Counted from the first letter of the stretch, positions 38,758 to 55,843 are shown. The stretch is 64,000 nucleotides of DNA from an uncultured delta proteobacterium (GCA_963717985.1 CAVQYC010000005.1:73106-137105), one strand, 5' to 3'. Numbers and translations are program-made. The notes: generated from the letters alone by a model not told the origin.

Positions 38758-38758
38758 C

Positions 38759-39859: not shown

Positions 39860-39860
39860 A

Positions 39861-41649: not shown

Positions 41650-41650
41650 G

Positions 41651-43048: not shown

Positions 43049-43291
43049 GTGACGATACAGGTGAAAATTTACGGCACCCTCCGCTATTACAAAGAGATCG
43101 TAGAAAAGTACATTTCAGGAGAGAAGGTCGAGGTTCCGGAAGGTACGTCCGCCGGCGCAATTCTCGAGATGCTCCATCTACCGGAAAGGGTCGCGACAAT
43201 TCTTATCGTGAACGGGGCGTACACGGACAAGAAGAAGATACTGAAGGACGGGGACGCCGTTTACATCATCTCGCCCGCGAGCGGGGGATAG
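43049..43291 (+). CDS. ThiS/MoaD-family ubiquitin-fold protein ending in Gly-Gly
   Basis: VTIQVKIYGTLR...DGDAVYIISPASGG-stop. GTG 43049 has SD AAGGTGGGG; ATG 43010 is an alternative start. Confidence 0.7.
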   Translation: MTIQVKIYGTLRYYKEIVEKYISGEKVEVPEGTSAGAILEMLHLPERVATILIVNGAYTDKKKILKDGDAVYIISPASGG

Positions 43292-43302
43292 GGGAGGTAG
43301 CC

Positions 43303-45762
43303 TTGAGGAAGACGAAAAACGGCATTATCGAGGAAGAGTCAAAGATCCTGGAGCTGATGGACAATCTGAGGGCAGACAAATATCCCCGCCGGACGTATGA
43401 CTGTATAGGGAGACGCGGTGTAAGGCGCGTCGACGGATTCGAGAAGGCGAGCGGGGAAGCCCTTTACACATTTGACGTGGCGCTGCCGGGGATGCTCTAT
43501 ATGCGGTTTCTTACCTCGCCCTATCCACACGCGAAAATCGTTCGAATGGACACGAGCAAAGCTGAGGCCCTGCCAGGGGTAAGGGCAGTACTGAGGTATG
43601 ACGACCCAGACCTGCCGGTGTCAGCCGACCTGGGGGGTCACGTGGTTTCATCGGAACGCGTTATCCCCGACACGGCCTACTTTCAGGGAGAGGAAGTAGG
43701 AGCGGCGGTGGCGGCGGACACCGAGCAGATAGCCGAGCAGGCACTGCGTCTGATACAGGTGGAATGGGAGCAGCGTCCTTTTCTGCTTGATGGAGAGGAA
43801 GCGGTGAAACCTGGCGCCATTCTCGCCAACCCTGAATTGCTCCCTGCCGGTAACGTCTTCAACCGGGGCATCGATATCGAGGAGACGGGCGATGTCGATA
43901 AGGGTCTGGCGGAAGCAGACAGAATCATCGAGTTCGAAATCCGCCGCACGGCAAACACCTGGATCGGGCCGGAACGTCCTTGCGGTGTCTTCAAGTGGAA
44001 TGGAGAGTATCCCGAAGTGTGGGTCAAACAACAACGGCCCCACGTATGCAAGCGCGTCGTTGCGTCATGGTTCGGCGGGATGCCGGTGAACAAGGTCCAG
44101 ATGCACTGCCTGTACCAGGGGGCGAGCTTCGGGGGGTGGAGCCAGATGCCGTGGAACATGGGCGGACATTACTGCGCCGCGGTTGTGGCAGCAAGGACTC
44201 GGAGACCGGTGAAATGGGTGTTCACCAGAAGGGAAGATTTCTACGGCGGGCAGATGGATGAAGGGACTTACTTTTTCAAGGTCGGCGTGGACAACGATGG
44301 GACGATCAAAGCCGTCAAGGTGCACGCCATACTGGTCAACCTGATGATACCTATCTTCGGCATTATCAAGCACCTCATCGAGAACACGAAAATTCCGAAT
44401 ATCTATGGAAAGTTAGAGGCGGTGAAAGTCAATAAGGGTACCAATGTTCCGGTACGCTGCGAACAGGCGCCCAACGTAATTGCCCTTTCCATGGTCTTTG
44501 ATCGCGTAGCGAGCGTCCTGGAGCTTGATCCTATAAACGTTGCCTTGAAGAACGATGGGGCGAACGGCCACGACATGAAATGGCTCAACGAGAAAAAGAA
44601 GGAGTTAGGATTCCCTATACGAGATAGCTTGGCCGAATGCATAGAAAAGGGTCGGGCAGCCATTGGCTGGGATGAAAAATGGCACCTTCCGGGCATGAAG
44701 AGGCTTCCAAACGGCAGGATGCATGGGATTGCCTTTACTTGGGCGCACGAATGGGAGGATTCTGCGGGATCGAGCGAAATAGCACTACGTATTGAGCGAA
44801 CTGACGGAAGCGCAACCATTCTTGGAATGCGGGCCGATAACGGGGTAAACGCCGAAACGGCCTACTGCCAGATCGCAGCGGATGAGCTTGGGATGCGCAT
44901 CGAGGACGTTTATTACAGACCTCATCACGATACCGGTTTTTTTCCGATGACTCCCGATTCCTCCACCAACATGTCTGTAAATGGGTTTGCGATCCGAAAT
45001 GCCGCGAGAATCCTGAAAAAGAAGATACTTAAGGCGGCGACGAGTCCGATGGGGGAGACGCAGAGGGGCGCTTTTCCAGTTCCTTTTCCTGAGATGGAAC
45101 CGGAGGATCTCGATATCAAGGACAGCGTCATCTACGTCAAATCCGATCCGTCAAAAAGGATGTCGATAGCAGAATTGGTCGGTCCTTCAGGGGCAGGCGG
45201 ACCAATTATTCAGGGCGATCTGGGGATGGAGGGGGCTACGAGGGCGCCCTTTAGCGCGCCCCTCTTTGCCCATAGCTGGCAGGTGCAGGACGGAGCCTAC
45301 GCCCATGCCAGGCTTCGGATGTGCCGTCAGGCACATTTTATGGAGGTTGAGGTCGACACGGAGACCGGGGAGGTCGAAGTAACGAAGGTAGTGATCGTTA
45401 ACGACGTCGGCAAGGTGATATCTCCCGAAGGAGCGGAAGGGCAGCAGTACGGCGGCGCATATATGGGTGTCGGAAGGGCGAGGAGTGAAGAGGTGATACA
45501 TGATCCGGTGACAGGCGTGATGCTTAATGGCAACCTCCTTGACTATAAGATAGCAACTATGAATGATGTCGGCTCTGTCGATACTATTCTCGTGGAGACC
45601 GGTATGGGCTATGGCCCCTACGGTACTGTCGGCATCGGTGAGGACGTCGCAACGGTTGTCCCCCCCCTCCTCGGCCCGGCAGTTCATAACGCCATTGGCG
45701 TCTGGGTTGACGAGTTTCCTCTCACGCCCGATAGGGTGTTGAAGGCCCTTGGGAAGGCGTAG
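43303..45762 (+). CDS. molybdopterin-binding large subunit of the xanthine-dehydrogenase/aldehyde-oxidase family
   Basis: RRVDGFEKASGEALYTFDVALPGMLYMRFLTSPYPHAKIVRMDTSKAEALPGVRAV is the family N-terminus. Start is TTG 43303 (SD GGGGAGG) or ATG 43357. The first 99 codons of the track ORF overlap the MoaD-like gene and are rejected. Confidence 0.85.
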   Translation: MRKTKNGIIEEESKILELMDNLRADKYPRRTYDCIGRRGVRRVDGFEKASGEALYTFDVALPGMLYMRFLTSPYPHAKIVRMDTSKAEALPGVRAVLRYDDPDLPVSADLGGHVVSSERVIPDTAYFQGEEVGAAVAADTEQIAEQALRLIQVEWEQRPFLLDGEEAVKPGAILANPELLPAGNVFNRGIDIEETGDVDKGLAEADRIIEFEIRRTANTWIGPERPCGVFKWNGEYPEVWVKQQRPHVCKRVVASWFGGMPVNKVQMHCLYQGASFGGWSQMPWNMGGHYCAAVVAARTRRPVKWVFTRREDFYGGQMDEGTYFFKVGVDNDGTIKAVKVHAILVNLMIPIFGIIKHLIENTKIPNIYGKLEAVKVNKGTNVPVRCEQAPNVIALSMVFDRVASVLELDPINVALKNDGANGHDMKWLNEKKKELGFPIRDSLAECIEKGRAAIGWDEKWHLPGMKRLPNGRMHGIAFTWAHEWEDSAGSSEIALRIERTDGSATILGMRADNGVNAETAYCQIAADELGMRIEDVYYRPHHDTGFFPMTPDSSTNMSVNGFAIRNAARILKKKILKAATSPMGETQRGAFPVPFPEMEPEDLDIKDSVIYVKSDPSKRMSIAELVGPSGAGGPIIQGDLGMEGATRAPFSAPLFAHSWQVQDGAYAHARLRMCRQAHFMEVEVDTETGEVEVTKVVIVNDVGKVISPEGAEGQQYGGAYMGVGRARSEEVIHDPVTGVMLNGNLLDYKIATMNDVGSVDTILVETGMGYGPYGTVGIGEDVATVVPPLLGPAVHNAIGVWVDEFPLTPDRVLKALGKA

Positions 45763-45899
45763 AAGCGAGGTCTTGGAATCGTGCCTGTCAATCGCTGATT
45801 CGTGGTCGATTTGGGCGACAGGTGTCACTGCCTGAATCTTAGGGACGGGTGAAATATGCTCACATTTGTGAGTGCGAGAGCAAAGGGGTGGGGATTTGC

Positions 45900-46717
45900 A
45901 ATTCTTCAACGATTCGCGTTCGAGAGAGCTTGTTACAATATGGTATACTCTCCTGCCGGGCGAGATTTATCTATACGGCGGGCAAACCAAGACTTGAAGT
46001 GAATTCGGCCAAGGGGTCAGATGTCCATTCTGGAGCATGCATAAATGAAAAGGCGGCCTTCGAAATGGCGCTCTCAGGCGTCTGGACCGCGAAACGGACA
46101 GCCTGCATCTTCTCGACGGCGGGCCTCTATGAAGCCCTCGACCCGTTGATGAGCTCGGCTTACATGGGAGTAAAGGGAGGTCTTGTCATCGCGTGCGTGA
46201 AGGAAGGCACCCTCGACGTCAACCCCTCTCGGTCTCTTTTCGAAACTGCCCGTCCTCGTCTCTGACGGCAGTCCGGACCGGCTCTCTTCCGCTTTGTCTT
46301 TCGCCTTAGACCTCTCCGAGCGCTACGAGATCCCGTGTCTAGTGGAGACACTGCCCCCCCCGTGGACCCCTCAAAAGGTCGAATGGGCTCAAAGACCCGG
46401 CGGGTAGGGCCACCTTCGTGAAGGACCCGACGAGATGGGTCGCAATCCCGCGGTTCAGGTACGAGTTGCATAAACGCCTAAACGAGAAGATAGACAAGAT
46501 GCGCGATGAGTTCGAGACTTACCCAGGCAATGCGCAGCTCCTGCAGGGGAAAAAGGGCCTCATCACCCACTACGCCCGTGGGGAAGAGGCGCCGGGGAAC
46601 AACGTGAGTGTACTGGCCCTCAGCTCGGTCTTTCCGCTCCACCGGCACGCTGCCGAACCGCGTTTGCGGTCGCCAGACCTTCTCCTGCTCGCATGCCATG
46701 GCCAGAAAGAGCCATAA
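45900..46717 (+). pseudogene. indolepyruvate/2-oxoacid:ferredoxin oxidoreductase alpha subunit (IorA-like), N-terminal third only, multiple frameshifts
   Basis: Three frames carry consecutive IorA-like pieces: INEKAAFEMALSG...GLYEALDPLMSSAYMGVKGGLVI; then ALSFALDLSERYEIPCLVET; then KDPTRWVAIPRFRYELHKRLNEKIDKM...VSVLALSSVFPL. Confidence 0.7.
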
Positions 46718-46762
46718 GACTTATATCAACGCCATAATAAAATTGTTAAGGAGGCAACAGTC

Positions 46763-48142
46763 ATGGCAAATCAAGCAGATGGCAATCCTACGGCGGACAG
46801 AGGATTCGAGAAGGTTATTCCACATTCTCCTTATGTTCCCTATGATCCCGACGTCAGATTATATGTGGGTACTATGAGAAAGTTCCTGGTTCCTTACGAA
46901 TACACCGGCTGGCGGGACGAGACAATGGCCTGGAAAGAGTCGTGCTATCTGCACGGCAATCTGAATCCAACCCCCACCTTTCGCATCAAGGGGCCGGACG
47001 CTCTGAAATTTCTGTCCGACACCTGCGTCAACGGCTTCTCGAAATTCCCGGCGGGTACCGGCAAGCACGCCATCATGTGTAGAGAAGATGGTATCATCAT
47101 GCAGGACGGCGTACTGCTGCGACTGGCTGAGGACGATTTCATCACCTACTGGATGGCACCGTACATTGTCTACGCGTTGGAAAAGGGCAAATATAATGCC
47201 GTAGGTGAAAACCTTACCGGTAAAGTTTTCCTGTTCCAGGTGGCCGGTCCTCGCTCGCTGGAAATACTGGAAGCAGCCACAGGTGACAACCTCCACGATA
47301 TTCGCTTCATCAATCACCGGGAAAGTGCCATTGCCGGCAAAAAGGTTCGTATCCTGCGGCTGGGCATGGCAGGCAGTCTGGCGTACGAAGTCCATGGTCA
47401 GTTTGAGGACGCCCGCACCGTGTACGGCGCCATCTTCGAGGCCGGTCAGCCCTACGGCACCCGCAGGCTGGGCTTTCACGCTTATATGATGAACCACACG
47501 GAGGACGGTTTCCCCCAAGCCTATTATCACTTCATCTACCCCTGGAAAGAGGACAAAGGCTTTGAGGACTATCTGCAAAATGCCGTGATTAGTCCGACTA
47601 TCACCTGCCTGGGCAGCATGGGTACGGACGTCAAACTGCGCTACCGGAACCCTGTAGAGTTGGGCTGGGGCGGCATGATCAAATTCGACCACGACTTCGT
47701 CGGCCGCAAAGCTCTCGAGAAGGAAGTGGCGAATCCACGCCGGAAGATGGTCACTCTGGAATGGAACACCGAGGATATCATCGATGTGTACGCCTCGCAG
47801 TTCCGACCCGGTGAGCCCTATACCAACATGGACGAACCATACCACTTTAATCATGAGGATGCAACCAACACGCTGTACGCGGACCAGGTGCTGAAGGACG
47901 GCAAGCTGATCGGCGTCAGCTCCGGTCGCGCTTATAGCCACAATTACCGCAAGATGATCTCCCTCTGCTCCCTGGACGTGAAATATGGCGACCTGGGCAC
48001 GGAAGTTACAGTGCTGTGGGGCAACCCCGGCACGCGTCAGAAAGAGATCCATGCGACGGTTTCCCGGTTCCCGTACTTTGACAAAAACCGCAACCAGACC
48101 GTCGATGTGAGCAAGACCCCGTACATTGCCGCAAAAAAGTAA
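46763..48142 (+). CDS. GcvT-fold aminomethyltransferase family protein, LigM/DesA-like tetrahydrofolate-dependent aryl O-demethylase
   Basis: 459 aa. WRDETMAWKESCYL...IKGPDALKFLSDTCVN and KFDHDFVGRKALEKEVANPRRKMVTLEWNTEDIIDVYASQF closely parallel the LigM sequence as I remember it. Confidence 0.7.
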   Translation: MANQADGNPTADRGFEKVIPHSPYVPYDPDVRLYVGTMRKFLVPYEYTGWRDETMAWKESCYLHGNLNPTPTFRIKGPDALKFLSDTCVNGFSKFPAGTGKHAIMCREDGIIMQDGVLLRLAEDDFITYWMAPYIVYALEKGKYNAVGENLTGKVFLFQVAGPRSLEILEAATGDNLHDIRFINHRESAIAGKKVRILRLGMAGSLAYEVHGQFEDARTVYGAIFEAGQPYGTRRLGFHAYMMNHTEDGFPQAYYHFIYPWKEDKGFEDYLQNAVISPTITCLGSMGTDVKLRYRNPVELGWGGMIKFDHDFVGRKALEKEVANPRRKMVTLEWNTEDIIDVYASQFRPGEPYTNMDEPYHFNHEDATNTLYADQVLKDGKLIGVSSGRAYSHNYRKMISLCSLDVKYGDLGTEVTVLWGNPGTRQKEIHATVSRFPYFDKNRNQTVDVSKTPYIAAKK

Positions 48143-48342
48143 TCCTTTGCAATTGGCGATTAAACAGGCCTAGGCAGGGTCGGATTTGCGCTTGAGGAGG
48201 TGTTGTATAGTACGGAAACCGTTTACCAGAGGTGACAGCATAATCGTAACTGTTTTCTTGACCGCCAGCATTATGAAATGTCTAGTTATCAGAAAGGGGG
48301 TTAATTAAGAAACTTTAGGAGAAAACGAACGCCAAGATAATA

Positions 48343-48511
48343 CCCCGTGACTTGAGACGCCATTGAGGCTCCCCATGCGAGCCGCAATGGAATCCCTCTG
48401 GAGGTCATCTCTGTGAGGATTCTGCGGCACTGGGACCTCAGGATCACGCAGATGTACCTCGTTAGGATAAGCGAGGTTGATGCCGTGCGCTTGATGGATC
48501 TGCTTCACGAG
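48343..48511 (+). pseudogene. second tyrosine recombinase scar (last ~55 codons, frameshifted)
   Basis: PRDLRRH, then a frame change, then HASRNGIPLEVISVRILRHWDLRITQMYLVRISEVDAVRLMDLLHE. Same lineage as 23114-23953. Confidence 0.75.
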
Positions 48512-48825
48512 GTAACGGAAATCACGCCGGTGCCTCATCGACTCGCGTTTTCAACATTATGAATGGTTATCGTCAGAAATTGTGAAGCATGAAAAATCAC
48601 GTTGGTGAAGGCCACAACTGGATAGACCATTTTCTCAGGCACGGATCGTCTCTATTCGGGTGCACCGGGTGGCGATTGGGGCTTGAATCTCGCTGCTGCG
48701 GGGGTACGTCTATCTACGAGGATATTGCGACGGCTGCCAAAACCCCCAATCCTTAACACCTCGCTTCGTTATGAGAAGTAATATCTAAGGTACGGGCACC
48801 ACAATGACCGCCCTGGAGGGATCAG

Positions 48826-49251
48826 ATGCCTTACCTTTTGCATGTGGTGAAGGGCAAAGAAAAGCGAGTAGTCGAGGTTTTCGGCCTCCATGGGGTGGCG
48901 GCGAAGAAAGCCCTCATCAGCGAGTACGTAGTTACCTACGACCCGAAATCGGAAGAACTACGCTATCTCGATTCCGTCTCCGGCTACATTCTGAACGTCT
49001 CCCCTATAGAAGACGAGGAAGTGGGGAGATTCCTGGGGCTGAGCGAAACCGTCTTTCCGAAGTCCGGCATGAAGGCGGGGTGCATAGTCCGTATTCTCTC
49101 CGGAGAGTATCAGGATTTTCATGGAGTGGTCCGGCGCCTCTCGGACGGCAAGGTAGAAATAGACGTGATTATGTTCGGAAGGCTGCGGCCTGTCGTACTG
49201 GACAGAGACGACGTGGCGCCGGAGGCGCTTCCTGAGGGGTTCACCCCGTGA
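48826..49251 (+). CDS. NusG-family paralog (NGN + KOW) specialised antiterminator candidate
   Basis: SD GGAGGG upstream. NGN-like YLLHVVKGKEKRVVEVF...VSGYILNV. KOW reads GCIVRILSGEYQDFHGVVRRLSDGKVEIDVIMFGR. Confidence 0.7.
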   Translation: MPYLLHVVKGKEKRVVEVFGLHGVAAKKALISEYVVTYDPKSEELRYLDSVSGYILNVSPIEDEEVGRFLGLSETVFPKSGMKAGCIVRILSGEYQDFHGVVRRLSDGKVEIDVIMFGRLRPVVLDRDDVAPEALPEGFTP

Positions 49252-49745
49252 AAGGGAGCGGAAGGATAGCCGGCTACGCGGTGAACCGAAAAACTATTTC
49301 CGTGAGGATCGAAATGTCGGGGGCTATGGCTCATCTCGATGAATTGGAACAATACAAGGGCAAGACGAAAACCATCAGGCTCGATGCGTTTCATCTTGTA
49401 GGGAAGATCGAATCCATCACCATAAGCAGAAACGTGGGATTCCTCATGCATGCGGCAAGGCTCGATTTCATCAACCGTAGGCTATTCCGCCTCATGGAGA
49501 AAGAACCTCTCACAATAGAGGTGAGCACGCCACAGCAGGACAAGCTGCTCTATTTCCTGGAAACAGCGGCAAAGAAGCGCAACAGAAAGGCAGGGGACTT
49601 GCTGTTCGAGTTGTCCTCCTTCAAGAAAAAAGACGGAGACGGACCGGAAAAGACAATCCCGGGCAAAAGATCGGTCTTCGACCTCTCGGAGGCCCAGTCG
49701 AATGTCGTCTTCGATAAGATCAGGAGGCTATCGGCCACTTCATAA
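49248..49745 (+). CDS. hypothetical protein (165 aa)
   Basis: ORF overlaps the NusG-like stop (GTGA). No recognisable motif. Start is uncertain. Confidence 0.5.
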   Translation: MKGSGRIAGYAVNRKTISVRIEMSGAMAHLDELEQYKGKTKTIRLDAFHLVGKIESITISRNVGFLMHAARLDFINRRLFRLMEKEPLTIEVSTPQQDKLLYFLETAAKKRNRKAGDLLFELSSFKKKDGDGPEKTIPGKRSVFDLSEAQSNVVFDKIRRLSATS

Positions 49746-49753
49746 GGCGGACC

Positions 49754-50974
49754 ATGTTCGAGACGGTAAGAACGATAATCGCAATTCTCCGGGAAAAGGA
49801 CCGTCAGGGTGAGAAAATCGTCCTGTCTCTCGACGACCTCTGTCCGATTTGGATCAAATACAACACCTCATTCAAACCGGCCGCCGTTGTCAAAGAAACT
49901 GCGAAAGCAGTATCGGGACCGGAAGAGACGGTTGTTCCCACCCCATCCAGCGAAGACGCCGAAGACCGGCCTGCAAGCGGAAAGGCCATTGTGACGGTCC
50001 AGGCGTTCTACAGCGAGGTGATCGAACCCCATAAGGAAAGCCTCTCGGGCATGCTGGAGGGGATCAACAGGATCATGGAACTCCTCGAGCGATATGGGGA
50101 TTGCCCCTCGGTCGTCGATACGATCGCCGATTCGGAGAAAAAAGTGGCAACCCGCGTAGGCGACATCCTCTCAAAGGTCACGCTCCGGGACCACACCTTC
50201 AACGTGACCCGTATCGCCCTCCGGCTTCTCAAGGACACCTACCACGATCCGGTAGGATACGTCCCTGCCGTGATCATAGCTGCCCTCGGCCACGACCTGG
50301 GGAAGATACCTGAACTGAGAAACCGGGACAAGTACGTGAAGGCGGACCACCCCCCAGCAAGCGTTTGCATCATAGAGGAGATATTCGAGAAAGACAAAGA
50401 AGCTCACTGGCTCAAGATGGTCGCCAAAGCTATAGGAGAGCACCATCAATCGGCGACCGACCCGTTGTCTGAGCTGCTTAAGGAGGCGGACGGGAAGGCG
50501 CGACAGATGGAGATCGAGCAGGGCGAGAAACGGGCCTCCATCCAGTGGGAAGAATGGTTCGACTGCAAAGAGCTCCTCCGGAGGGTAGGCGCGACCGTCA
50601 ACGTGACGCAAACCGGAAGCGCCTTCCGGGCCTTCTCCGTCGATGACACGGTCTACTGCGATCCGACGTTCCTTTACGAGACAGCGGGCGCCATGGCGGC
50701 CGAGAGAAGCATCATCGACATCACGCTGCTGCGGGATACCGACAAGGAGAGGGCGGTAAGAAGGATCGTCGAGAGCTTGAGGAAATCGGATCTGCTTACC
50801 TCCGAGCTCGGAAAAGCCTATACGACTCGCCGATACGAGATCCAGGTCGAACAGGGAAAGCCCAAGAGGCCGCTCCTCGTGCCGGTAAAAGCAGACGCCT
50901 TCGAGAACCGGGCGGACTTCGAAGAGATCAAGAAAAGCTACCCACCTATCATAAGGGGGATCACCCCGTTATGA
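49754..50974 (+). CDS. HD-domain (metal-dependent phosphohydrolase) protein with an unknown N-terminal region
   Basis: RDHTFNVTRIAL...AALGHDLGKIPE...ADHPP...GEHH...EADGKA gives the H..HD..H..D pattern. Confidence 0.7.
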   Translation: MFETVRTIIAILREKDRQGEKIVLSLDDLCPIWIKYNTSFKPAAVVKETAKAVSGPEETVVPTPSSEDAEDRPASGKAIVTVQAFYSEVIEPHKESLSGMLEGINRIMELLERYGDCPSVVDTIADSEKKVATRVGDILSKVTLRDHTFNVTRIALRLLKDTYHDPVGYVPAVIIAALGHDLGKIPELRNRDKYVKADHPPASVCIIEEIFEKDKEAHWLKMVAKAIGEHHQSATDPLSELLKEADGKARQMEIEQGEKRASIQWEEWFDCKELLRRVGATVNVTQTGSAFRAFSVDDTVYCDPTFLYETAGAMAAERSIIDITLLRDTDKERAVRRIVESLRKSDLLTSELGKAYTTRRYEIQVEQGKPKRPLLVPVKADAFENRADFEEIKKSYPPIIRGITPL

Positions 50975-51228
50975 TAGGTGCCCACTTCATTGACTACCTC
51001 AATCCCCTCGCCTACATGTCCCACACCCAGTACATGTCTCTCTGGCGCGTGCTATTCCAGGCGGTGCTCCAGGGTTTCTGGGCGAAGCTCTTTGCCTCAT
51101 CCGCTCTTTTCCTCGCCTTCTTCATCGGCGTCTATAGACAGCGCATAGTGGTGGGTGTTCTCCTTTTCTTCCTCTCCGTTGCGATAGCGTACGGCGGATG
51201 CATGTTGAAGTTTGTGCTGGGGCTATGA
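50971..51228 (+). CDS. small membrane protein (2 predicted TM helices)
   Basis: ATGA overlap with the HD gene. Hydrophobic segments LFASSALFLAFFIGVY and IVVGVLLFFLSVAIAYGG. Confidence 0.55.
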   Translation: MIGAHFIDYLNPLAYMSHTQYMSLWRVLFQAVLQGFWAKLFASSALFLAFFIGVYRQRIVVGVLLFFLSVAIAYGGCMLKFVLGL

Positions 51229-51950
51229 GCCACAAGGACGGCGACAAAACGAACGACATCACGCCGATAGGGGTTGGCGGCTCCATTCGGCCGAAGAGCT
51301 TCATCGACGTGGTCTCCATCGTGCAGAACTACTTCCTCGCGGAAAAGCATGGGAACGACCTCCCGGAGAACCTGCTGACCCTTAAAGGCAAGATCGTGAT
51401 CTCTGAGGTGGGATTCAAAGGAGCCTTTATCTCCGGCCTGATAAGCATCCTTCTGACACCCTTTTTTGTCGGTGTCATCGAGAGGTGCGTCCCCATCTTC
51501 GGCTCCTACGAATTCACCCTGTTCGATCAGGCTTTCGCCGTGGCCCTGGCGCTGAGCTTCGCCATGGGCTACAGCCTCATCCTTGCCTCCATCGGCAGGT
51601 ACTACATAGGGAAGCTTTCGAAACGGGCCATCAACTGGCTCATGGCCGGACTGACCGTCGCCGGGGCGCTCAAGATCATCATCGCCTTTGTCTTCTACAA
51701 CACCCTCTACGCCTCGGTGCTCGATGAGGGGCGCGTCGCCCGGTTTCTCCTGTGGTTCTATCCCCAGGTAAGCTATCAGACCCTCAACAGGATCTACCGG
51801 CTTCTCATGGGCGTGAAGCCGGTGCTTCTCACCTCGGCGAGCTTCGTGGTCCTCACCACGTTCCTCATGATCACGATCCCCTGGCTGTTCATCTTCACTG
51901 CTTGCAGGAAGACGAGAAGGATGATCGAGCGGGAGAGGATCTGGAGATAA
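51225..51950 (+). CDS. integral membrane protein (about 5 TM), unknown function
   Basis: ATGA overlap with the upstream ORF. Contains several long hydrophobic stretches. Confidence 0.6.
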   Translation: MSHKDGDKTNDITPIGVGGSIRPKSFIDVVSIVQNYFLAEKHGNDLPENLLTLKGKIVISEVGFKGAFISGLISILLTPFFVGVIERCVPIFGSYEFTLFDQAFAVALALSFAMGYSLILASIGRYYIGKLSKRAINWLMAGLTVAGALKIIIAFVFYNTLYASVLDEGRVARFLLWFYPQVSYQTLNRIYRLLMGVKPVLLTSASFVVLTTFLMITIPWLFIFTACRKTRRMIERERIWR

Positions 51951-52044
51951 AGGTAATATGTGGATAGGTGTCCGTATCTTCTCCGGGATGCTTCTTTTGG
52001 AGACCAGGGGGAACGGCCTATATGACGAACAAGGAGGAAGGTCC

Positions 52045-52965
52045 ATGGCGATTGATTGCATAGGGATAGACATTGGGTACGGATTCACCAAGACGTGCCG
52101 GTCGGAAAAGGATAGGCAGATATTCCCCACCGCCGTCGCCATGATGACCAAAGAGGGCGCGTTTGAAGACATGATCCCCGTCGTGGTCAACGGCCGCAGG
52201 TACCTGGTCGGAAAAGACGCGGAGAGAGAAGGCGGCGGCTATGACACCCGTCGATCCAGCTTTGTGGCGTCGGATGCTTGGCTTGCGGTCCTGGGCCATT
52301 GCCTCCGGCTCAACGACTTCTCAAACGGCGACGTCGTGCTGGGCATTCCTCCAGGAATGTACGCGAAGGACTATAACCGGAAGATCGTCAACGCCATAAG
52401 GACGTCAGACATAAGGGTAAAGGGAGAGCCCTGCCGGATCGGCGGAAACATCAGGATCATCCCTCAGGGCGCGGGCATATTCTTTTGCCACATCCAGAAC
52501 TACCCTGACGACTTCCGGAAAAACGTCGCTGTTATCGACGTCGGCCACCACACCTTGGATATGGTCTTCTTCGCCGAAGGGAAATACGTGGAGAGCGCCA
52601 CGGAGACCCACAAGATCGGCGTATCGGTCGTGCTCGACGACATCGCTAATGCATTCTTGCGCGAGCACAGGCGGTCCATCGGCTTCAGAGGCGCCCTCGA
52701 CATCCTCCGGGGCAAGCAGATCGCGTACATGGGCACCCCTTGCCCCGTCGATGTTCGGGAAGAGGTTAATGGCTACGTGCATCAAATTGACTCGTTCGTG
52801 GACCACTATCTGGAGAAGCTTCCCGCTCATCCCGACCTGGGCGTTATCGGAGGGGGCGGCGCCATGATAAAGGACTTCGCGGGCAGGCACGGCCTGCTCA
52901 TCGTGGGCGAGCCGGCGATGGCGAACGCAATAGGGTACTGGCACTACGGCAGGAATGCAAAATAG
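52045..52965 (+). CDS. ParM/StbA-like actin-fold ATPase
   Basis: SD AAGGAGGA upstream. Motifs GIDIGYGFTK, IIPQGAG, VIDVGHHTLD, VIGGGGA. Confidence 0.7.
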   Translation: MAIDCIGIDIGYGFTKTCRSEKDRQIFPTAVAMMTKEGAFEDMIPVVVNGRRYLVGKDAEREGGGYDTRRSSFVASDAWLAVLGHCLRLNDFSNGDVVLGIPPGMYAKDYNRKIVNAIRTSDIRVKGEPCRIGGNIRIIPQGAGIFFCHIQNYPDDFRKNVAVIDVGHHTLDMVFFAEGKYVESATETHKIGVSVVLDDIANAFLREHRRSIGFRGALDILRGKQIAYMGTPCPVDVREEVNGYVHQIDSFVDHYLEKLPAHPDLGVIGGGGAMIKDFAGRHGLLIVGEPAMANAIGYWHYGRNAK

Positions 52966-52975
52966 GGAGGCGGCG

Positions 52976-53197
52976 ATGGCGGAAGATTTCGTCGTCTACA
53001 GGGTGCACATCCACAAGGCGAAGCAGAAGGAGCTCTACGAGCTGCTCGAAGGCATGCCGAAATCCATCCGGGGGCTCTACATCAGGGAAGCCCTGGAGCA
53101 CTATCGTCTCGCCAAAGGGCTTTCGACTGAAAAACCGCAAGGCCGGGACCTCTCCGTTCAAGGGGTTTATGAGCAGGACTTCGGAGGGAGAGGGTGA
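52976..53197 (+). CDS. small putative ribbon-helix-helix adaptor (ParR-like position)
   Basis: SD AGGGAGG upstream. MAEDFVVYRVHIHKAKQKELYELLEGMPKSIRGLYIREALEHY looks like strand-helix-helix. Lies directly after the ParM-like gene. Confidence 0.45.
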   Translation: MAEDFVVYRVHIHKAKQKELYELLEGMPKSIRGLYIREALEHYRLAKGLSTEKPQGRDLSVQGVYEQDFGGRG

Positions 53198-53342
53198 GCA
53201 TAGCGTGAGCGGGCAAGGCGGACAGCAGGACTACCGCCGTCTCGACGGTCCTGAAGCGGAAATCCACGTCCGGAAGATCGGGTTCAAGGAAAATAGGCGC
53301 TGTTTCCCTGGCCCATGACGTCGTGCCGGCAGGGGTTCTCGC

Positions 53343-53684
53343 TTGATGGTCCTGCCTGAGGGAGGAATGATGGCAACCACAAGCATCCAGTGGATCAAGA
53401 AGCACGGGAGCACGGCGCGGGGAAAGCGCGAATTGATAGCTTTCCTCAAGGGCAAGGCCCTCACCATGAAGGAGAGCATCCTTGCCAATTGCTACGAGTG
53501 TACGGGCTTTTACATGGATGGTCGAAAGGACTGCGAGGTTGAAGGGTGCCCGCTTCATGGTTTCATGCCCTATCGGAAGGGCGGCGCCGTAAAGGTGAGG
53601 AAGGTGTCCGAAGAGACAAAGGCGAAAATGCGGAAGGCGCGGGAGCGGAAGGCACAGAAAATCGATTCTGTTGCCATAGGGTGA
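53343..53684 (+). CDS. small Cys-rich (CxxC-x10-C-x4-C) basic protein
   Basis: ANCYECTGFYMDGRKDCEVEGCPLHG, then a Lys/Arg-rich tail. Start is uncertain (53346-53370). Confidence 0.5.
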   Translation: MMVLPEGGMMATTSIQWIKKHGSTARGKRELIAFLKGKALTMKESILANCYECTGFYMDGRKDCEVEGCPLHGFMPYRKGGAVKVRKVSEETKAKMRKARERKAQKIDSVAIG

Positions 53685-53940
53685 TGTCGGGAATTGGTTT
53701 TGGACCATCGACAGCGGTCGAGTGGACTCAGGGTAGGGGGCAGGGAATGAAGTTTTTGGCGCGAGGCAGGACTGCCTGCCCACGGGGGTTCCGAAGCATG
53801 ACCAAGGTGGACACAACAACAGGAAGCTTGCTGGGAGCATGTCCTTCATGGAAAAGCAGGGGCTGGCAATAAGCAAGGAGCGGGAATGCCTTCAAGCCCG
53901 CATTTGATCGAATGCTATGGGCACAGCATAGGCACAACGA

Positions 53941-54180
53941 ATGAATAGGGTCGAACGCCTCAACAAGTATAAGGCAGGCCGGAAGAACCCAAAAGGGCCG
54001 GCGAAGAGACTGTACAGCATACCGGAAGCTGCTTTCTACCTCGGGCGGACGGTGGACGCCTTGAGAGAAATGTTATGGGCCGGTAAAATCCCCTACGTGA
54101 AGGATGGCAGACGAGTGCTTCTCGACGTGAAGGACATGGACGAATACATCGAGAGAAATAAGAACCGATTCTCCTATTGA
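53941..54180 (+). CDS. excisionase-type helix-turn-helix protein
   Basis: LYSIPEAAFYLGRTVDALREMLWAGKIPYVKDGRRVLLDVKDMDEYI is the typical Xis/AlpA-like HTH. Confidence 0.7.
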   Translation: MNRVERLNKYKAGRKNPKGPAKRLYSIPEAAFYLGRTVDALREMLWAGKIPYVKDGRRVLLDVKDMDEYIERNKNRFSY

Positions 54181-54223
54181 GGTTCCCTTGACATATCCGG
54201 TCGATAGTTTTACCCTCCTGTTA

Positions 54224-54446
54224 ATGACGCCCGAAGACCTCAAGGCCAGGCGCAAAAGCCGCTAATACACGCCGCAAGCGGCTCTTGCCCGCGCCCTGGA
54301 AGTGATCCCATTGACCGCGTTACTCGATGGGAGACGGGTGTCAGGCGATTCCGCCGTTCCTGCATCTTGCCCTTAGATGCCTGGAATTAGAAGGGGGTGA
54401 GGGAAAAGCCAAGGGAAAAGGAAAAGACAAAGGAGGCAAAAGATAA
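54224..54446 (+). pseudogene. decayed XRE-type HTH gene (one nonsense codon, two frameshifts)
   Basis: MTPEDLKARRKSR*YTPQAALARALEV / VTRWETGVRR / IPPFLHLALRCLELE... is spread over three frames. The last frame ends in a TAA that overlaps the integrase ATG. Confidence 0.65.
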
Positions 54447-55714
54447 TGGGCATGATCTACCAGAGGGGTAAGACGTTTTGGGTGAAGTATTACCGCAACG
54501 GCAAGTCGTACTATGAGAGCAGCCATTCAGAAAAAGAAAGCGTAGCGAAGAGACTCTTAAAACAGCGTGAGGGTGAGATTGTAGACGGCCGTTTCCATGG
54601 TCTACAAGCGGAGAAGGTGAAGTTTGAGGAGATCACGCGGGACCTGCTTACCGATTATCAGTTCAACAACAGAAAATCCATAGTACACGTCCGGATCAAG
54701 GTAAAGCACCTTGATGCCTTCTTTTCCGGCATGAGGGTAAACGACATCGATACGCCGGCCGTGAGCCGCTACGTGGTAGCCAGGCGCGAGCAGGGCGCCG
54801 AGAATGCGACGATCAACAGAGAGCTTGCAGCGCTCAAGAGGGCTTTCTCTCTCGCCGTGAAGTGTACCCCGCCGAAGGCCCTGCATGCTCCGTATATCGG
54901 TATGCTGAAGGAGAACAACACGCGGTCACAGTTTTTTGAGCAAGAAGACTATTATAAGCTGATGGAAGCCCTGCCGGATCACCTGAAGCCGCTTTTCGCC
55001 ACGTCGTATTTCACGGGATGGCGGAAGGGCGAACTTTTGTCGTTGACCTGGGCGGGTGTGAACCTCTTTCAGAAGCAACTTACCCTTGCGCCGGGCACAA
55101 CAAAGAACGGGAAAGGCCGTACCGCGTTTATGCCGGGACCCCTCTATGAAATGATCCGGGCACAATATGGCGCCTCGACGCGCGACTATCCGAAGTGTCC
55201 CTATGTCTTCCATAAGAACGGCCAGAGGATAGGCGACTTCCGCAAGACCTGGGAGCGGGTGCTAACTGCCTGTGGCTACAAGGCTACGTTCAAGTGCCGG
55301 GATTGCGGGGCGATGGTCGAGATCGAGGCGACTGAGAGATGGAAGAAAGTTGGGCCGAGTCTTTACATGGCCGAGGGTGAGGTAAGGAAGGGCAAAAGGG
55401 CAGGTTGGCAGAAAGTAGCATGCTTGTCATGTGGCTCTGATCGCTTTCAGAAGTGGGGCCGCGTCTTCCACGACAACAGGCGCACAGCCGTAAGAAACCT
55501 CACGAGAACCGGCACGCCTGAAGGGGTAGCCATGGAGCAGACAGGGCACCTCACGCGGAGCGTCTTCGAGAGGTACAATATCGTTTCAGAAGGGGACCTT
55601 CGAGGGGCAGCGGAACGGCTTACCCGAGCATACGAGCGGAACGCAGAACAGTTACAACAGTTACAAAAAAACGGTGACGGTGACAAAAAGGTTACAATCG
55701 GACTGGTAAAGTGA
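54446..55714 (+). CDS. tyrosine-type integrase with a CxxC...CxxC insertion in the catalytic domain
   Basis: N-terminal MIYQRGKTFWVKYY... Catalytic motifs TGWRKGELLSL, FHDNRRTAV, GHLTRS, FERYN. Adjacent to the tRNA 3' end. Confidence 0.85.
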   Translation: MGMIYQRGKTFWVKYYRNGKSYYESSHSEKESVAKRLLKQREGEIVDGRFHGLQAEKVKFEEITRDLLTDYQFNNRKSIVHVRIKVKHLDAFFSGMRVNDIDTPAVSRYVVARREQGAENATINRELAALKRAFSLAVKCTPPKALHAPYIGMLKENNTRSQFFEQEDYYKLMEALPDHLKPLFATSYFTGWRKGELLSLTWAGVNLFQKQLTLAPGTTKNGKGRTAFMPGPLYEMIRAQYGASTRDYPKCPYVFHKNGQRIGDFRKTWERVLTACGYKATFKCRDCGAMVEIEATERWKKVGPSLYMAEGEVRKGKRAGWQKVACLSCGSDRFQKWGRVFHDNRRTAVRNLTRTGTPEGVAMEQTGHLTRSVFERYNIVSEGDLRGAAERLTRAYERNAEQLQQLQKNGDGDKKVTIGLVK

Positions 55715-55766
55715 CATGACCTGTCAAGGCTATTCAGCAAAACTCATGTGTTTTCAAGGGTTTCAA

Positions 55767-55843
55767 TGGTGCGCCCAGTAGGATTCGAACCTACAGCCTT
55801 TGGATTCGTAGTCCAACGCTCTATCCAGTTGGGCTATGGGCGC
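55767..55843 (-). tRNA. tRNA-Arg (anticodon ACG), CCA encoded
   Basis: The 77-nt cloverleaf folds by hand: GCGCCCA/TGGGCGC acceptor, TTGGA-CTACGAA-TCCAA anticodon arm, GTAGG-TTCGAAT-CCTAC T-arm. Very similar to E. coli tRNA-Arg(ACG). Confidence 0.9.

What the first reader, a model, noticed from the sequence alone, without database searches (positions are those of the whole stretch)
48343..55843. Integrase/excisionase element at tRNA-Arg(ACG), led by a NusG paralog and carrying mostly unknown genes
From 48826 to 55714, all on the plus strand and tightly packed or overlapping, are:
- a NusG-family NGN+KOW protein;
- a 165-aa unknown;
- an HD-domain protein;
- two membrane proteins;
- a ParM-like actin-fold ATPase with a small RHH-like protein;
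- a Cys-rich basic protein;
- an excisionase-type HTH;
- a decayed XRE gene;
- a tyrosine integrase whose 3' end faces the 3' end of tRNA-Arg, 52 nt away.

That is the classic layout of a tRNA-integrated island. A dedicated NusG paralog at the head of the gene string suggests operon-specific antitermination, as in RfaH/UpxY/LoaP-type systems. I see no replication, capsid, conjugation or known defence genes, so the element type is unclear. I could not find a direct repeat of the tRNA 3' end, so the left boundary is undefined. The left edge coincides with the older recombinase scar (48343-48790).
Basis: partly seen in the sequence, partly recalled or inferred. Interest (0 to 1): 0.65.

Follow-up and report, generated by a model that had tools for sequence, protein, structure and literature searches.

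The report
Integrase end of a decayed conjugative island
The gene string is not a small stand-alone element but the conserved integrase-side end of a large (at least about 73 kb), partly broken conjugative island inserted into a tRNA-Arg gene; this is an ordinary kind of mobile DNA, though it carries a widespread, unnamed HD-domain protein family that always travels with DNA-transfer machinery.

Summary
Contigs of the same species carry an empty site. Their match to the window stops at 55765, and ispG follows instead.

The left junction lies outside the window. A 49-nt copy of the tRNA 3' part (55765-55813) sits next to ispG in three other assemblies. The island therefore does not end at 48343. 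On the window's own contig, F-type transfer genes traN and traW lie 4.5-6.7 kb left of window position 1, and an IS cuts traW.

In relatives, p1-p8 directly follows traF-traH-traG, or traN and a lytic transglycosylase gene. The finding is thus the conserved integrase-side backbone of an F-type integrative conjugative element (ICE). This copy has lost traU-traG and gained at least 57 kb of cargo.

- **p1** is a small NusG/Spt5-like protein. A conserved 10-mer (AAGTAATATC) sits 15-52 nt upstream of its start codon in 14 of the 15 related loci that carry it. Resident NusG paralogs in transfer operons are already known (ActX/PrfaH).
- **p3 and p5** are linked to the type IV coupling protein. p3's family (959 clusters) has no known function and may be an unrecognised relaxase.

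Overall this is a new variant of a known kind, of moderate interest.

The parts
1..48600 (.). Cargo region of the same island. It holds catabolic and transport genes, IS elements and small-recombinase copies. The transfer-gene backbone (traN, truncated traW) lies 4.5-6.7 kb further left on the same contig.
   Evidence: L075 is the window's own contig; L075 8654-20666 equals window 1-12013. No Tra hits were found in the window. No second att core was found in the window.
27669..28810 (-). IS630-family (DDE_3) insertion sequence. It is 100% identical to, and in the same orientation as, the copy that truncates traW left of the window.
   Evidence: blastn L075 4087-5228 = window 27669-28810, 100% over 1142 nt. 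TraW matches model positions 2-166 of 202.
48316..48596 (+). Pseudogene fragment (C-terminal part) of a small XerA/integron-integrase-like tyrosine recombinase. It belongs to the cargo side, not to the conserved module.
   Evidence: 73% identical to 23755-23979 and 69% to 4694-4948. 71% identical to L018 8458-8723, where an intact copy sits just upstream of p1. NCBIfam XerA 1.9e-29 for the intact copy.
48601..48775 (+). 'Type A' leader upstream of p1, one of three alternative leader cassettes. It may form a long-range stem (48619-48626 with about 48711-48718).
   Evidence: Homology with L014, L017 and L021 starts at 48601-48604. RNAalifold on 4 sequences gives weak support.
48776..48785 (+). 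Conserved 10-mer AAGTAATATC, 50 nt upstream of the p1 ATG. It is a candidate -10 element or ops-like loading site for p1.
   Evidence: Invariant in all 11 aligned leaders. Besides the window, there are 16 exact copies in 1.09 Mb of fetched loci. Three are re-samples of the window locus. Eleven lie 15-52 nt upstream of p1 in other loci, and one lies beside a truncated p1 match. Near-variants occur in L011, L020, L023 and L046. The motif is absent from Nitrospira-type loci.
48826..49251 (+). p1: compact (141 aa) NusG/Spt5-family protein (NGN + KOW).
   Evidence: The AF2 KOW domain is confident (residues 81-134) but the N-terminus has low confidence. dN/dS is 0.09-0.12.
49248..49745 (+). p2: 165-aa basic protein of unknown family, translationally coupled to p1. 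It is present only in Syntrophorhabdia-type relatives.
   Evidence: No Pfam, PHROG or NCBIfam hit. Synteny. dN/dS about 0.1.
49754..50974 (+). p3: 406-aa HD-domain protein with a conserved N-terminal 'GDCPSVV' motif and a C-terminal alpha/beta domain. It belongs to a family linked to T4SS genes and the type IV coupling protein (T4CP).
   Evidence: Pfam HD 1.3e-8. Invariant H147, H180, D181, K184, H199, H230, H231, D246. AF2 pLDDT 81.7. hhalign to plasmid homologs next to a T4CP, E about 1e-30. 959 clusters.
50971..51228 (+). p4: 85-aa protein with two hydrophobic segments.
   Evidence: Conserved after p3 in 32 loci. dN/dS 0.05-0.09.
51225..51950 (+). p5: polytopic membrane protein, 241 aa from the ATGA-overlap start (the ORF opens at 51198). 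Its gene is linked to the T4CP gene in other lineages.
52042..52965 (+). p6: ParM-like actin-fold ATPase (the ORF opens at 51958).
   Evidence: ALP_N 6.6e-17, PHROG_691 9e-28, PRTRC_D 1.3e-13.
52955..53197 (+). p7: small ParR-like adaptor. The assignment is weak.
   Evidence: NF010497 ParR E 3.7e-5, 23.7 bits against a cut-off of 140. No parC-like iterons were found nearby.
53343..53684 (+). p8: Cys-rich basic 113-aa protein of unknown function. It is the last gene of the conserved module.
   Evidence: DNA homology with L007 and L010 ends at 53751-53752.
53941..54180 (+). p9: excisionase-type HTH (part of the swappable integration module).
   Evidence: HTH_17 1.3e-10, TIGR01764 5.6e-10. 100% identical in L014. 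Not conserved in the other relatives.
54446..55714 (+). p10: tyrosine integrase with an inserted CxxC...CxxC segment. The catalytic R, K, HxxR, H and Y residues are present.
55765..55813 (.). 49-bp att core (the attR copy). It covers the 3' 47 nt of tRNA-Arg plus 2 nt.
   Evidence: An identical 49-mer occurs in attL contigs (L070/L082, L083, L084) and attB contigs (L062/L069, L066).
55767..55843 (-). tRNA-Arg(ACG), the integration target.
   Evidence: ARAGORN and Rfam, 68.7 bits.

Best explanation
Window 48601-55764 is the conserved integrase-side backbone end of a large F-type integrative conjugative element (ICE). The ICE spans at least about 64 kb on this contig. It spans at least about 73 kb if the attL end seen in other assemblies is joined to it.

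**Integration (shown).** The p10 integrase, together with the p9 excisionase, inserted the element into the 3' half of tRNA-Arg(ACG) through a 49-bp core. This separated the tRNA from its ancestral neighbour, ispG.

**Decay (shown).** This copy is broken. An IS630-family element cuts traW, and traU, trbC, traF, traH and traG are missing. At least 57 kb of cargo bordered by IS elements and recombinase copies now lies between the transfer genes and p1.

**Roles of the genes (inferred)**
- p1-p5 form one translationally coupled operon.
- p1 is a resident NusG/Spt5-like elongation factor. It probably loads on RNA polymerase at or near the conserved AAGTAATATC site and keeps transcription of the module processive. 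In intact relatives this may extend to adjoining transfer genes, as ActX/PrfaH and RfaH do for tra/virB operons.
- p3 (HD metal-dependent nuclease or phosphohydrolase) and p5 (polytopic membrane protein) work with the type IV coupling protein in DNA processing and transfer.
- p6 and p7 (ParM/ParR-like) partition the excised circle.
- p9 and p10 excise and integrate the element.

Because the att sites, the integrase and the excisionase are intact, the island can probably still excise. It could move only with a helper ICE.
For: **Integration site**
- The match of same-species contigs (99-99.8% identical) to the window ends at 55765. It continues into ispG, a CDP-alcohol phosphatidyltransferase-family gene, an inositol-1-phosphate synthase gene, fumarase, malic enzyme and ligA.
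- attL (ispG flank, 49-nt core, then new sequence with NERD and HD-567 genes) occurs in three assemblies. One of them also holds the attR and cargo contigs.

**Transfer genes**
- The window's own contig carries TraN (NCBIfam 2.4e-26) and a truncated TraW (6.5e-27, model positions 2-166 of 202), cut by an IS.
- p1-p8 follows TraU, TrbC, an S26 peptidase, TraF, TraH and TraG in L008. It follows the same genes from TrbC on in L007, TraF-TraH-TraG in L025, and TraH-TraG in L011. The p1-like gene, p3, p4 and p5 follow TraN and SLT in about 20 Nitrospira loci, including the complete N. moscoviensis genome.

**Swappable integration module**
- The conserved module is followed by different integrases and by minus-strand tRNA or tmRNA genes: Arg, Lys, Ser, Cys, Met and tmRNA.

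**Individual genes**
- p1 is NusG/Spt5-like.
- The 10-mer lies upstream of p1 in every related locus where p1 has its own leader.
- All eight genes are under purifying selection, dN/dS 0.05-0.3.
- p3-family genes sit directly after a bona fide T4CP on two MPF_F-type plasmids. The T4CP lies between p5 and p3 in four further loci.

**Literature**
- Resident NusG paralogs in tra/virB operons, with an ops-like site downstream of their own promoter, are described in PMC11880322, PMC7593976 and PMC7819879.
Against: - Continuity between the attL end (NERD / HD-567) and the traN region was not seen on one contig. The tools would not return that part of the 702-kb contig.
- A genome rearrangement or a composite of two elements cannot be excluded.
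- L014, from another species, shares only 48601-55897, and L017 and L021 share the same left limit. A discrete small unit could produce that pattern.
- No T4CP or recognised relaxase was seen in the fetched parts of this ICE.
- The NGN half of p1 is supported only by profile matches. The AF2 model has low confidence for residues 1-80.
- No promoter or terminator signal rose above the shuffled background.
- Nothing shows that p1 acts on transcription here.
Confidence: 0.8

Rival explanations
1. It proposes a self-contained integrative (mobilizable) element of about 7.3 kb, spanning 48601-55766, that integrates on its own at tRNA genes. On this view it merely sits beside unrelated DNA or an older island.
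For: - L014 shares exactly 48601-55897 with the window and nothing else.
- The L017 and L021 leaders begin their homology at the same position.
- Six close relatives show no Tra gene within 7-10 kb upstream of p1.
Against: - There is no second copy of the 49-nt core in the window, and no long direct repeat of the tRNA or tmRNA 3' region in any related locus. Only isolated 10-14-nt matches occur.
- attL lies next to ispG and has a different island end.
- The transfer genes lie on the same contig and strand.
- 48601 is the edge of one of three interchangeable leader cassettes.
- The same module is physically joined to the T4SS in L007, L008, L011 and L025.
Confidence: 0.1
2. This rival proposes a chromosomal rearrangement. 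A normal ICE or small element sat at tRNA-Arg, and recombination between repeated IS, recombinase or ICE copies then moved unrelated chromosome next to p1. On this view the 1-48600 region is not island cargo.
For: - Identical IS copies and three recombinase paralogs are present.
- The cargo looks metabolic and its G+C content is not distinct.
- L064 shows another breakpoint to the right of the tRNA, at 57190.
Against: - TraN and TraW lie to the left of the cargo, on the same strand as p1-p10. That is the order expected for one element with an insertion into the traW-traG segment.
- The assembly GCA_052915985.1 holds attL, attR and cargo contigs, but no empty site was returned from it.
Confidence: 0.1
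3. This rival proposes a prophage or phage-plasmid remnant, or a defence island. On this view ParM/ParR, the excisionase and the integrase come from a phage, and the HD protein is a Cas3-like defence nuclease.
For: - PHROG hits exist for p6, p9 and p10.
- PADLOC and NCBIfam give Cas3-HD matches to p3, E about 1e-9 to 1e-10.
Against: - There are no capsid, terminase or tail genes.
- The IMG/VR viral contigs hold no p3 relatives.
- The Cas3'' score (36.5 bits) is below the cut-off (43.45 bits), and no cas genes are nearby.
- p3 is consistently embedded in T4SS or T4CP gene clusters.
Confidence: 0.03

Closest known systems
F-type (MPF_F) integrative conjugative elements inserted in tRNA genes, such as the SXT/R391 and ICEclc-like catabolic islands. 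The comparison with these named families rests on my own knowledge.
   Same: - A tyrosine integrase and excisionase sit at one end, next to the tRNA.
- The direct repeat is formed by the tRNA 3' part (49 bp).
- F-type genes are present: traN, traW, traU, trbC, an S26 peptidase gene, traF, traH and traG.
- An actin-like partition system is present; SXT has srpMRC.
- Large catabolic cargo sits in hotspots, and strains with an empty site coexist.
   Different: - No MOBH, MOBF or other recognised relaxase was seen.
- No SetCD- or TraJ-type regulator was seen.
- A NusG/Spt5-like protein and an unnamed HD protein occupy the conserved region next to the integrase.
- This copy lacks traU-traG and is probably not self-transmissible.
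- The hosts are Syntrophorhabdia and Nitrospirota.
Plasmid-resident NusG paralogs ActX/PrfaH (IncX, R6K), and chromosomal RfaH acting on the F tra operon
   Same: - It is a specialised NusG-family protein encoded inside or at the head of conjugation gene clusters.
- A short conserved sequence lies just upstream of, or in the leader of, its own gene.
- The expected role is to keep long transfer operons transcribed (PMC11880322, PMC7593976).
   Different: - p1 is only 141 aa, the size of archaeal Spt5, and its NGN domain is very divergent.
- The candidate site (AAGTAATATC) is unlike ops (GGCGGTAGCGTG; from my own knowledge).
- AF2 shows the KOW domain as a beta-barrel, with no hint of an RfaH-like helical state.
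- In ICEs of the Syntrophorhabdia type, p1 lies downstream of traG rather than upstream of the T4SS genes.
- Its activity is untested.
MOBH relaxases (TraI of the gonococcal genetic island, SXT, IncA/C), compared with p3
   Same: - Both are HD-type metal-binding proteins of 300-400 aa encoded in conjugative elements with F-type T4SS.
- The HD...K motif is present (HDLGK).
- The gene is adjacent to the coupling-protein gene in several lineages.
- MOBH TraI cleaves oriT ssDNA with its HD and alternative 3H motifs (PMC6736028).
   Different: - There is no match to Pfam TraI_2 or to any NCBIfam relaxase model.
- There is no HHH 'alternative 3H' motif among the invariant residues.
- The spacing of the conserved His and Asp residues differs.
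- The C-terminal domain differs.
- Foldseek against PDB gives only generic HD hits.
ParMRC type II plasmid partition (R1; srpMRC of SXT)
   Same: An actin-like ATPase gene is followed by a small overlapping gene with a weak ParR match.
   Different: No parC-like iterons were detected upstream or downstream. The ParR match is far below the model's cut-off.

Membership tests
tRNA-integrated tyrosine-integrase genomic island | The integrase gene lies next to a tRNA gene, with its 3' end facing the tRNA 3' end. | tested here: met
   The integrase stop codon is at 55714 and the tRNA 3' end at 55767.
tRNA-integrated tyrosine-integrase genomic island | A direct repeat of the tRNA 3' part lies at the far end (attL). 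| tested here: met
   An identical 49-nt core lies next to the ispG flank in L070/L082, L083 and L084. It is absent from the window itself.
tRNA-integrated tyrosine-integrase genomic island | An empty site exists in close relatives. | tested here: met
   L062/L069, L065 and L066 are 98.9-99.8% identical. In them the tRNA is followed directly by ispG.
Integrative conjugative element (MPF_F type) | Mating-pair-formation (T4SS) genes lie within the island. | tested here: inconclusive
   TraN and a truncated TraW lie on the window's contig. TraU, TrbC, TraF, TraH and TraG are absent from the 72.6 kb examined. Complete runs are present in relatives L007, L008 and L025. This copy is therefore a decayed member.
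Integrative conjugative element (MPF_F type) | A relaxase and a type IV coupling protein are present. | tested here: inconclusive
   No recognised relaxase or T4CP lies in the window or the fetched flanks. A T4CP is adjacent to p3/p5 homologs in other lineages. The rest of this ICE could not be fetched.
Specialised NusG paralogs (RfaH / ActX / UpxY / LoaP type) | NGN domain plus KOW domain. | tested here: met
   The KOW domain is strongly supported (NusG 7.6e-14 with the family profile; AF2 pLDDT 75-89). The NGN domain is moderately supported (Spt5 4zn1 aligned to residues 1-120, E 1e-8; N-terminal motif 'YxxxVxxGKExxV'). AF2 has low confidence for residues 1-80.
Specialised NusG paralogs (RfaH / ActX / UpxY / LoaP type) | The gene is encoded in or next to a long target operon. 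| tested here: met
   p1 heads the translationally coupled p1-p5 string and is embedded in T4SS clusters in relatives.
Specialised NusG paralogs (RfaH / ActX / UpxY / LoaP type) | A specific recruitment site (ops-like) lies in the transcribed leader. | tested here: inconclusive
   The conserved 10-mer lies 15-52 nt upstream of p1. Whether it is transcribed or is a -10 element is unknown.
Specialised NusG paralogs (RfaH / ActX / UpxY / LoaP type) | Antitermination or anti-pausing activity on RNA polymerase. | not testable with these tools
   This needs in vitro transcription or genetics.
MOBH relaxase (for p3) | A match to the TraI_2 relaxase domain, or to any relaxase model. | tested here: not met
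   Pfam at E up to 10 and NCBIfam at E up to 0.05 give only HD, Cas3-HD, Cas10, HDIG and one unrelated weak hit.
MOBH relaxase (for p3) | An HD motif plus the alternative 3H (HHH) motif. | tested here: not met
   The HD motif is present (H180, D181, K184). The only adjacent invariant histidines are H230 and H231, and there is no HHH.
MOBH relaxase (for p3) | Site-specific nicking at oriT. | not testable with these tools
   This needs biochemistry.
Cas3'' HD nuclease (for p3) | A score above the family cut-off, and a CRISPR-Cas context. | tested here: not met
   TIGR01596 scores 36.5 bits against a cut-off of 43.45, and no cas genes are nearby.
ParMRC type II partition | An actin-like ATPase (ParM). 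| tested here: met
   ALP_N 62.5 bits against a cut-off of 26.3; PHROG_691 9e-28.
ParMRC type II partition | A ParR adaptor and parC iterons. | tested here: inconclusive
   The ParR match is 23.7 bits against a cut-off of 140. No iterons were found at 51900-52100 or 53150-53400.

The most novel reading that the evidence does not exclude
The p3 family may be a previously unrecognised class of conjugative relaxase or DNA-processing nuclease. It would serve F-type T4SS in Thermodesulfobacteriota and Nitrospirota.

- The family is made of HD-domain proteins of about 400-570 aa.
- It comprises 959 clusters at 50% identity.
- Its only Pfam annotation is 'HD'.

On this reading p5 would be the membrane partner of an unusually short coupling protein. 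It would explain why plasmids such as Geobacter anodireducens pSD (MPF_F) and the Desulfosarcina BuS5 plasmid are typed 'non-mobilizable'. It would also explain why a decayed ICE keeps p1-p5 intact: the island would remain mobilizable in trans.
Probability: 0.3. Interest if true: 0.75.

Novelty: new variant of a known kind. Interest (0 to 1): 0.45.

Why it matters
**For the scan.** The result corrects the unit. What looked like a compact mystery element is the end of a large island, at least about 73 kb. The island carries aromatic and one-carbon catabolic cargo in a syntrophic deltaproteobacterium-like genome of the Syntrophorhabdaceae group. Its attB, attL and attR sites are now defined, and it is polymorphic in natural populations.

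**For mobile-element biology.** Two things stand out.
- The result defines an undescribed backbone module: a NusG/Spt5-like gene, an HD-protein gene and two membrane-protein genes. F-type conjugative systems of Nitrospira, Syntrophorhabdia, Geobacter and Desulfosarcina share all or part of it.
- It points to a concrete candidate for the 'missing' relaxase of these systems.

**For transcription biology.** It adds a minimal, Spt5-sized bacterial NusG paralog with a sharply conserved candidate loading site.

Tried and rejected
- **Att repeat in the window and in relatives.** I searched the window and seven related loci for k-mers of 10 nt or more from the tRNA region. Only isolated matches of 10-14 nt turned up. 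Those inspected had no flanking similarity, including an inverted 12-mer at 48615.
- **TGGTG at 48603-48607 as a micro-core.** Rejected: L014 does not conserve it, and the true 49-nt core was found elsewhere.
- **Similarity between the window's left flank and the ispG flank.** None above shuffled controls.
- **'Short forms' as independent mobilizable elements.** Rejected as the main reading once traN/traW and attL were found.
- **Promoter and terminator scan.** No signal above shuffles.
- **parC iterons.** None found.
- **Pfam on 44 family members of p2, p4, p5 and p8.** Nothing.
- **Foldseek of the p3 model against PDB.** Only generic HD folds; best hit YhaM at 5.7e-3.
- **AF2 of p1.** The N-terminal half was not resolved, probably because the alignment was shallow.
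- **Pfam on the ten longest listed p3-family members.** No fused domains.
- **XRE remnant.** No Pfam hit.
- **Viral contig scan for p3.** Negative.
- **Fetching the island's attL end on the window's own contig.** Another returned only other assemblies. The truncated first ORF of the window was not on record.
- **Literature.** Searches found no description of this ICE family in Nitrospira or Syntrophorhabdus.

Full report
**1. The observation**

The table gives the family assignments.

| Gene | Coordinates | Size | Assignment |
|---|---|---|---|
| p1 | 48826-49251 | 141 aa | NusG KOW: TIGR00922 2e-6, PDB NusG 2.6e-6 |
| p2 | 49248-49745 | 165 aa | No hit in Pfam, PHROGs or NCBIfam; one weak PADLOC match (Cas6, E 0.009) |
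| p3 | 49754-50974 | 406 aa | Pfam HD (1.3e-8); Cas3''-HD-like but below cut-off |
| p4 | 50971-51228 | 85 aa | About two hydrophobic segments |
| p5 | 51198/51225-51950 | 250 or 241 aa | About 4-5 hydrophobic segments |
| p6 | 51958/52042-52965 | 335 or 307 aa | ParM-like: ALP_N 6.6e-17, PHROG partition protein 9e-28 |
| p7 | 52955-53197 | 80 aa | Weak ParR match |
| p8 | 53343-53684 | 113 aa | Basic, four Cys |
| p9 | 53941-54180 | 79 aa | Excisionase-type HTH |
| p10 | 54446-55714 | 422 aa | Tyrosine integrase |

- tRNA-Arg(ACG) lies at 55767-55843 on the minus strand, 52 nt beyond the integrase stop codon.
- G+C content is not distinctive.
- The window holds no direct repeat of 13 nt or more of the tRNA.
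- The 'recombinase scar' is real. It lies at 48316-48596 on the + strand and is a fragment of a small tyrosine recombinase. An intact paralog sits at 23006-23953 and another fragment at 4694-5076.
- The 'decayed XRE' could not be confirmed.

**2. Integration at the tRNA, and where the island ends**

Contigs from the same species carry the right-flank gene at 98.9-99.8% identity. Their match to the window stops exactly at 55765, two bases past the tRNA 3' end. It then continues into ispG, a CDP-alcohol phosphatidyltransferase-family gene, an inositol-1-phosphate synthase gene, fumarase, malic enzyme and ligA (L062/L069, L065, L066). That is the empty site. None of that flank is in the 64-kb window.

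I then looked up the identical IspG protein. This returned L070, a contig from assembly GCA_052915985.1, which also holds occupied-site contigs. In L070 the ispG flank is joined to a 49-nt stretch identical to window 55765-55813. This stretch is the 3' 47 nt of the tRNA plus 2 nt. New sequence follows it, encoding a NERD protein, a 567-aa HD protein and a sigma-70-like protein.

A census of the 49-mer across all fetched loci gives three clean classes:

| Site | Arrangement | Loci |
|---|---|---|
| attB | ispG flank, core, tRNA 5' part | L062/L069, L066 |
| attR | integrase, core, tRNA 5' part | window, L014, L063, L064 |
| attL | ispG flank, core, island left end | L070/L082, L083, L084 |

The core runs from the 3' side of the anticodon stem to the tRNA end. 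The island's left end is therefore not at 48343, and it is not in the window at all.

**3. What the island is**

p1 has a narrow family: 68 proteins at 60-100% identity, one of them from a Syntrophorhabdaceae MAG. p3 has a broader family reaching Nitrospira and Thermodesulfovibrionales.

Genomic contexts show where the string sits in relatives:
- In L008 the string p1-p2-p3-p4-p5-ParM-ParR directly follows TraU, TrbC, an S26 peptidase, TraF, TraH and TraG.
- In L007 it follows the same run from TrbC on.
- In L025 it follows TraF-TraH-TraG, and in L011 TraH-TraG.
- In about 20 Nitrospira loci the order is TraN, lytic transglycosylase, p1-like, p3, p4, p5. One of these loci is in the complete N. 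moscoviensis genome.

DNA homology between the window and close relatives runs from 48775 (or 48601) to about 53750. The excisionase and integrase are replaced in the other relatives. The module there is followed by other minus-strand tRNA or tmRNA genes: Lys, Ser, Cys, Met and tmRNA. So p1-p8 is a conserved backbone block, and the integration module is swappable.

A look-up of a gene near the window's start returned the window's own 702-kb contig; L075 8654-20666 equals window 1-12013. Just left of the window, on the + strand, lie:
- a 562-aa ORF;
- TraN (NCBIfam 2.4e-26);
- TraW, truncated after model position 166 of 202 by an IS630-family element. An identical copy of that IS sits at window 27669-28810.

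TraU, TrbC, TraF, TraH and TraG are absent from the 72.6 kb examined. The 1-48600 region encodes several groups of genes, plus IS elements and the recombinase copies:
- a molybdopterin oxidoreductase;
- corrinoid and URO-D-family methyltransferases;
- a TRAP transporter;
- xanthine-dehydrogenase-family subunits;
- a two-component system;
- a GcvT-like protein.

The simplest reading is one F-type ICE whose traW-traG segment was replaced by at least 57 kb of cargo. It spans at least 64.5 kb on this contig. Adding at least 8.2 kb of non-overlapping attL-side sequence gives at least about 73 kb.

I could not see attL and traN on one contig. A rearrangement or a composite of two elements therefore remains possible.

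**4. Why the 'small element' appearance arose**

L014, from another species, shares only 48601-55897. L017 and L021 start their homology at the same point. However, an alignment of eleven p1 upstream regions shows three alternative leader cassettes that converge on one invariant motif. 48601 is the edge of one cassette.

None of the related loci has a long direct repeat of its tRNA or tmRNA 3' region within 10 kb. Only isolated 10-14-nt matches occur. This is what one expects if the region upstream of p1 is a cargo hotspot inside larger ICEs.

An intact copy of the small recombinase sits immediately upstream of p1 in L018, and a frameshifted one lies upstream in L010. The 'scar' therefore belongs to recurrent cargo-side structures. 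It is not an older integrase of this site.

**5. The NusG paralog**

A profile of 24 p1-family members from both phyla matches bacterial NusG (7.6e-14). It also aligns over residues 1-120 with archaeal Spt5 (1e-8). The N-terminal motif matches the NGN start of NusG. AF2 gives a confident beta-barrel KOW domain but low confidence for residues 1-80.

The 10-mer AAGTAATATC has 16 exact copies in 1.09 Mb of fetched loci, plus the one at 48776 in the window:
- three are re-samples of the window locus;
- eleven lie 15-52 nt upstream of p1 in other loci;
- one lies beside a truncated p1 match in L021;
- one lies elsewhere, in L046.

One-base variants occur in more distant loci. The motif is missing where the p1-like gene directly follows the transglycosylase gene. 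It is either a -10 element or an ops-like loading site.

Resident NusG paralogs in conjugation operons are established. ActX/PrfaH of IncX plasmids is required for transfer and acts through an ops-like site downstream of its own promoter (PMC11880322). RfaH activates the F tra operon, and plasmid NusG paralogs have been proposed to be tra antiterminators (PMC7593976, PMC7819879).

**6. The unknown genes**

All eight module genes are under purifying selection, with dN/dS of 0.05-0.3.

*Family and structure of p3*
- It has invariant HD-superfamily residues, a conserved N-terminal motif and a C-terminal alpha/beta domain.
- Its family has 959 clusters at 50% identity, annotated only as 'HD'.
- hhalign shows full-length homologs on two plasmids: Geobacter anodireducens pSD (typed MPF_F) and a Desulfosarcina BuS5 plasmid.

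*Link to the coupling protein*
- On both plasmids the homolog sits directly after a bona fide but short coupling protein.
- Both plasmids are typed non-mobilizable, meaning no known relaxase was detected.
- The same short coupling protein lies between p5-like and p3-like genes in four further loci and next to p5 in a fifth. The BuS5 plasmid also has a p5 homolog just upstream of its coupling protein.
- A second p3-family paralog (567 aa) sits at the island's attL end.

*What this does and does not show*
- These links make p3 and p5 DNA-transfer-associated proteins.
- The most interesting reading is that p3 is an unrecognised HD-type relaxase, by analogy with MOBH TraI (PMC6736028).
- p3 fails the MOBH membership tests that I could run: no TraI_2 or relaxase HMM match, and no HHH motif.
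- Foldseek returns only generic HD folds.
- No relatives occur in viral contigs.

**7. Verdict**

It is wrong about unit, size and type.

The feature is the integrase-side backbone of a decayed F-type ICE. This is a new variant of a known kind, and it is moderately interesting. The main points of interest are the T4CP-linked HD family and the minimal NusG paralog with its conserved upstream motif.

Noticed in passing
window 23006-23953 (+), 4694-5076 (-), 48316-48596 (+); L018 7795-8637; L010 5652-6520: A family of small XerA/integron-integrase-like tyrosine recombinases has one intact copy and two fragments in the window. An intact copy lies right upstream of p1 in L018, a relative at a different tRNA, and a frameshifted copy lies upstream of p1 in L010. 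The copies may mark the ends of cargo modules inserted upstream of p1.
   Followed up: partly
window 27669-28810 (-), and 3.4-4.6 kb left of the window start (L075 4087-5228): Two 100% identical IS630-family copies lie in the same orientation and flank about 31 kb of cargo (Mo-oxidoreductase, corrinoid methyltransferase system, TRAP transporter and others). The left copy truncates traW. A different DDE_3 transposase lies at 40547-41569.
   Followed up: partly
window 54446-55714, integrase residues about 277-330: The integrase carries an inserted CxxC...CxxC (zinc-ribbon-like) segment of about 55 aa inside its catalytic domain. The segment lies between the conserved Lys region and the HxxR motif.
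   Followed up: no
L070 1824-3527 / L083 1948-3651 (the island's attL end, outside the window): A second p3-family HD paralog (567 aa; hhalign probability 100%, E 1.8e-46) sits beside a NERD-domain gene at the opposite end of the island.
   Followed up: partly
L055, L058, L059, L060, L024; plasmids NZ_CP087953 (L086) and CP014964 (L087): Coupling proteins next to p3/p5 homologs are short: 439 and 455 aa on the two plasmids. Their Pfam matches begin near the N-terminus, which leaves no room for the usual membrane anchor. The adjacent p5-like polytopic protein may supply it.
   Followed up: partly
L012 5097-5738, and about 20 Nitrospira-type loci: The same T4SS clusters that encode the NusG-like protein also encode a 213-aa protein with a NusA-type KH domain (PF26594) a few genes upstream.
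   Followed up: no
window 48601-48775: The type-A leader upstream of p1 may form a structure of about 100 nt, with a stem between CTGGATAGA and TCTATCTA. Only four sequences were available, so covariation support is weak. The leader's start also resembles the start of the type-B leaders (TGAAGG.CCA.AAC).
   Followed up: partly
L064 1-897, compared with window 57190 onwards: One contig of the same species diverges from the window to the right of the tRNA, inside the Fe-S protein gene at about 57190. This is either a second structural variant or an assembly chimera.
   Followed up: no
window 1-48142: The cargo looks like an anaerobic aromatic or methoxy-compound catabolic set. It includes a B12-binding protein with two URO-D-family methyltransferases, a GcvT-like protein, xanthine-dehydrogenase / 4-hydroxybenzoyl-CoA-reductase-type subunits, a PocR-domain protein, a PAS-domain sensor kinase with a LuxR-type response regulator, and a TRAP transporter.
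   Followed up: no
L008 14773-16161: In the Syntrophorhabdaceae PtaU1.Bin034 relative, the module is followed by tRNA-Met with no integrase gene called in the 1.3-kb gap. The integration module may have been lost there.
   Followed up: no
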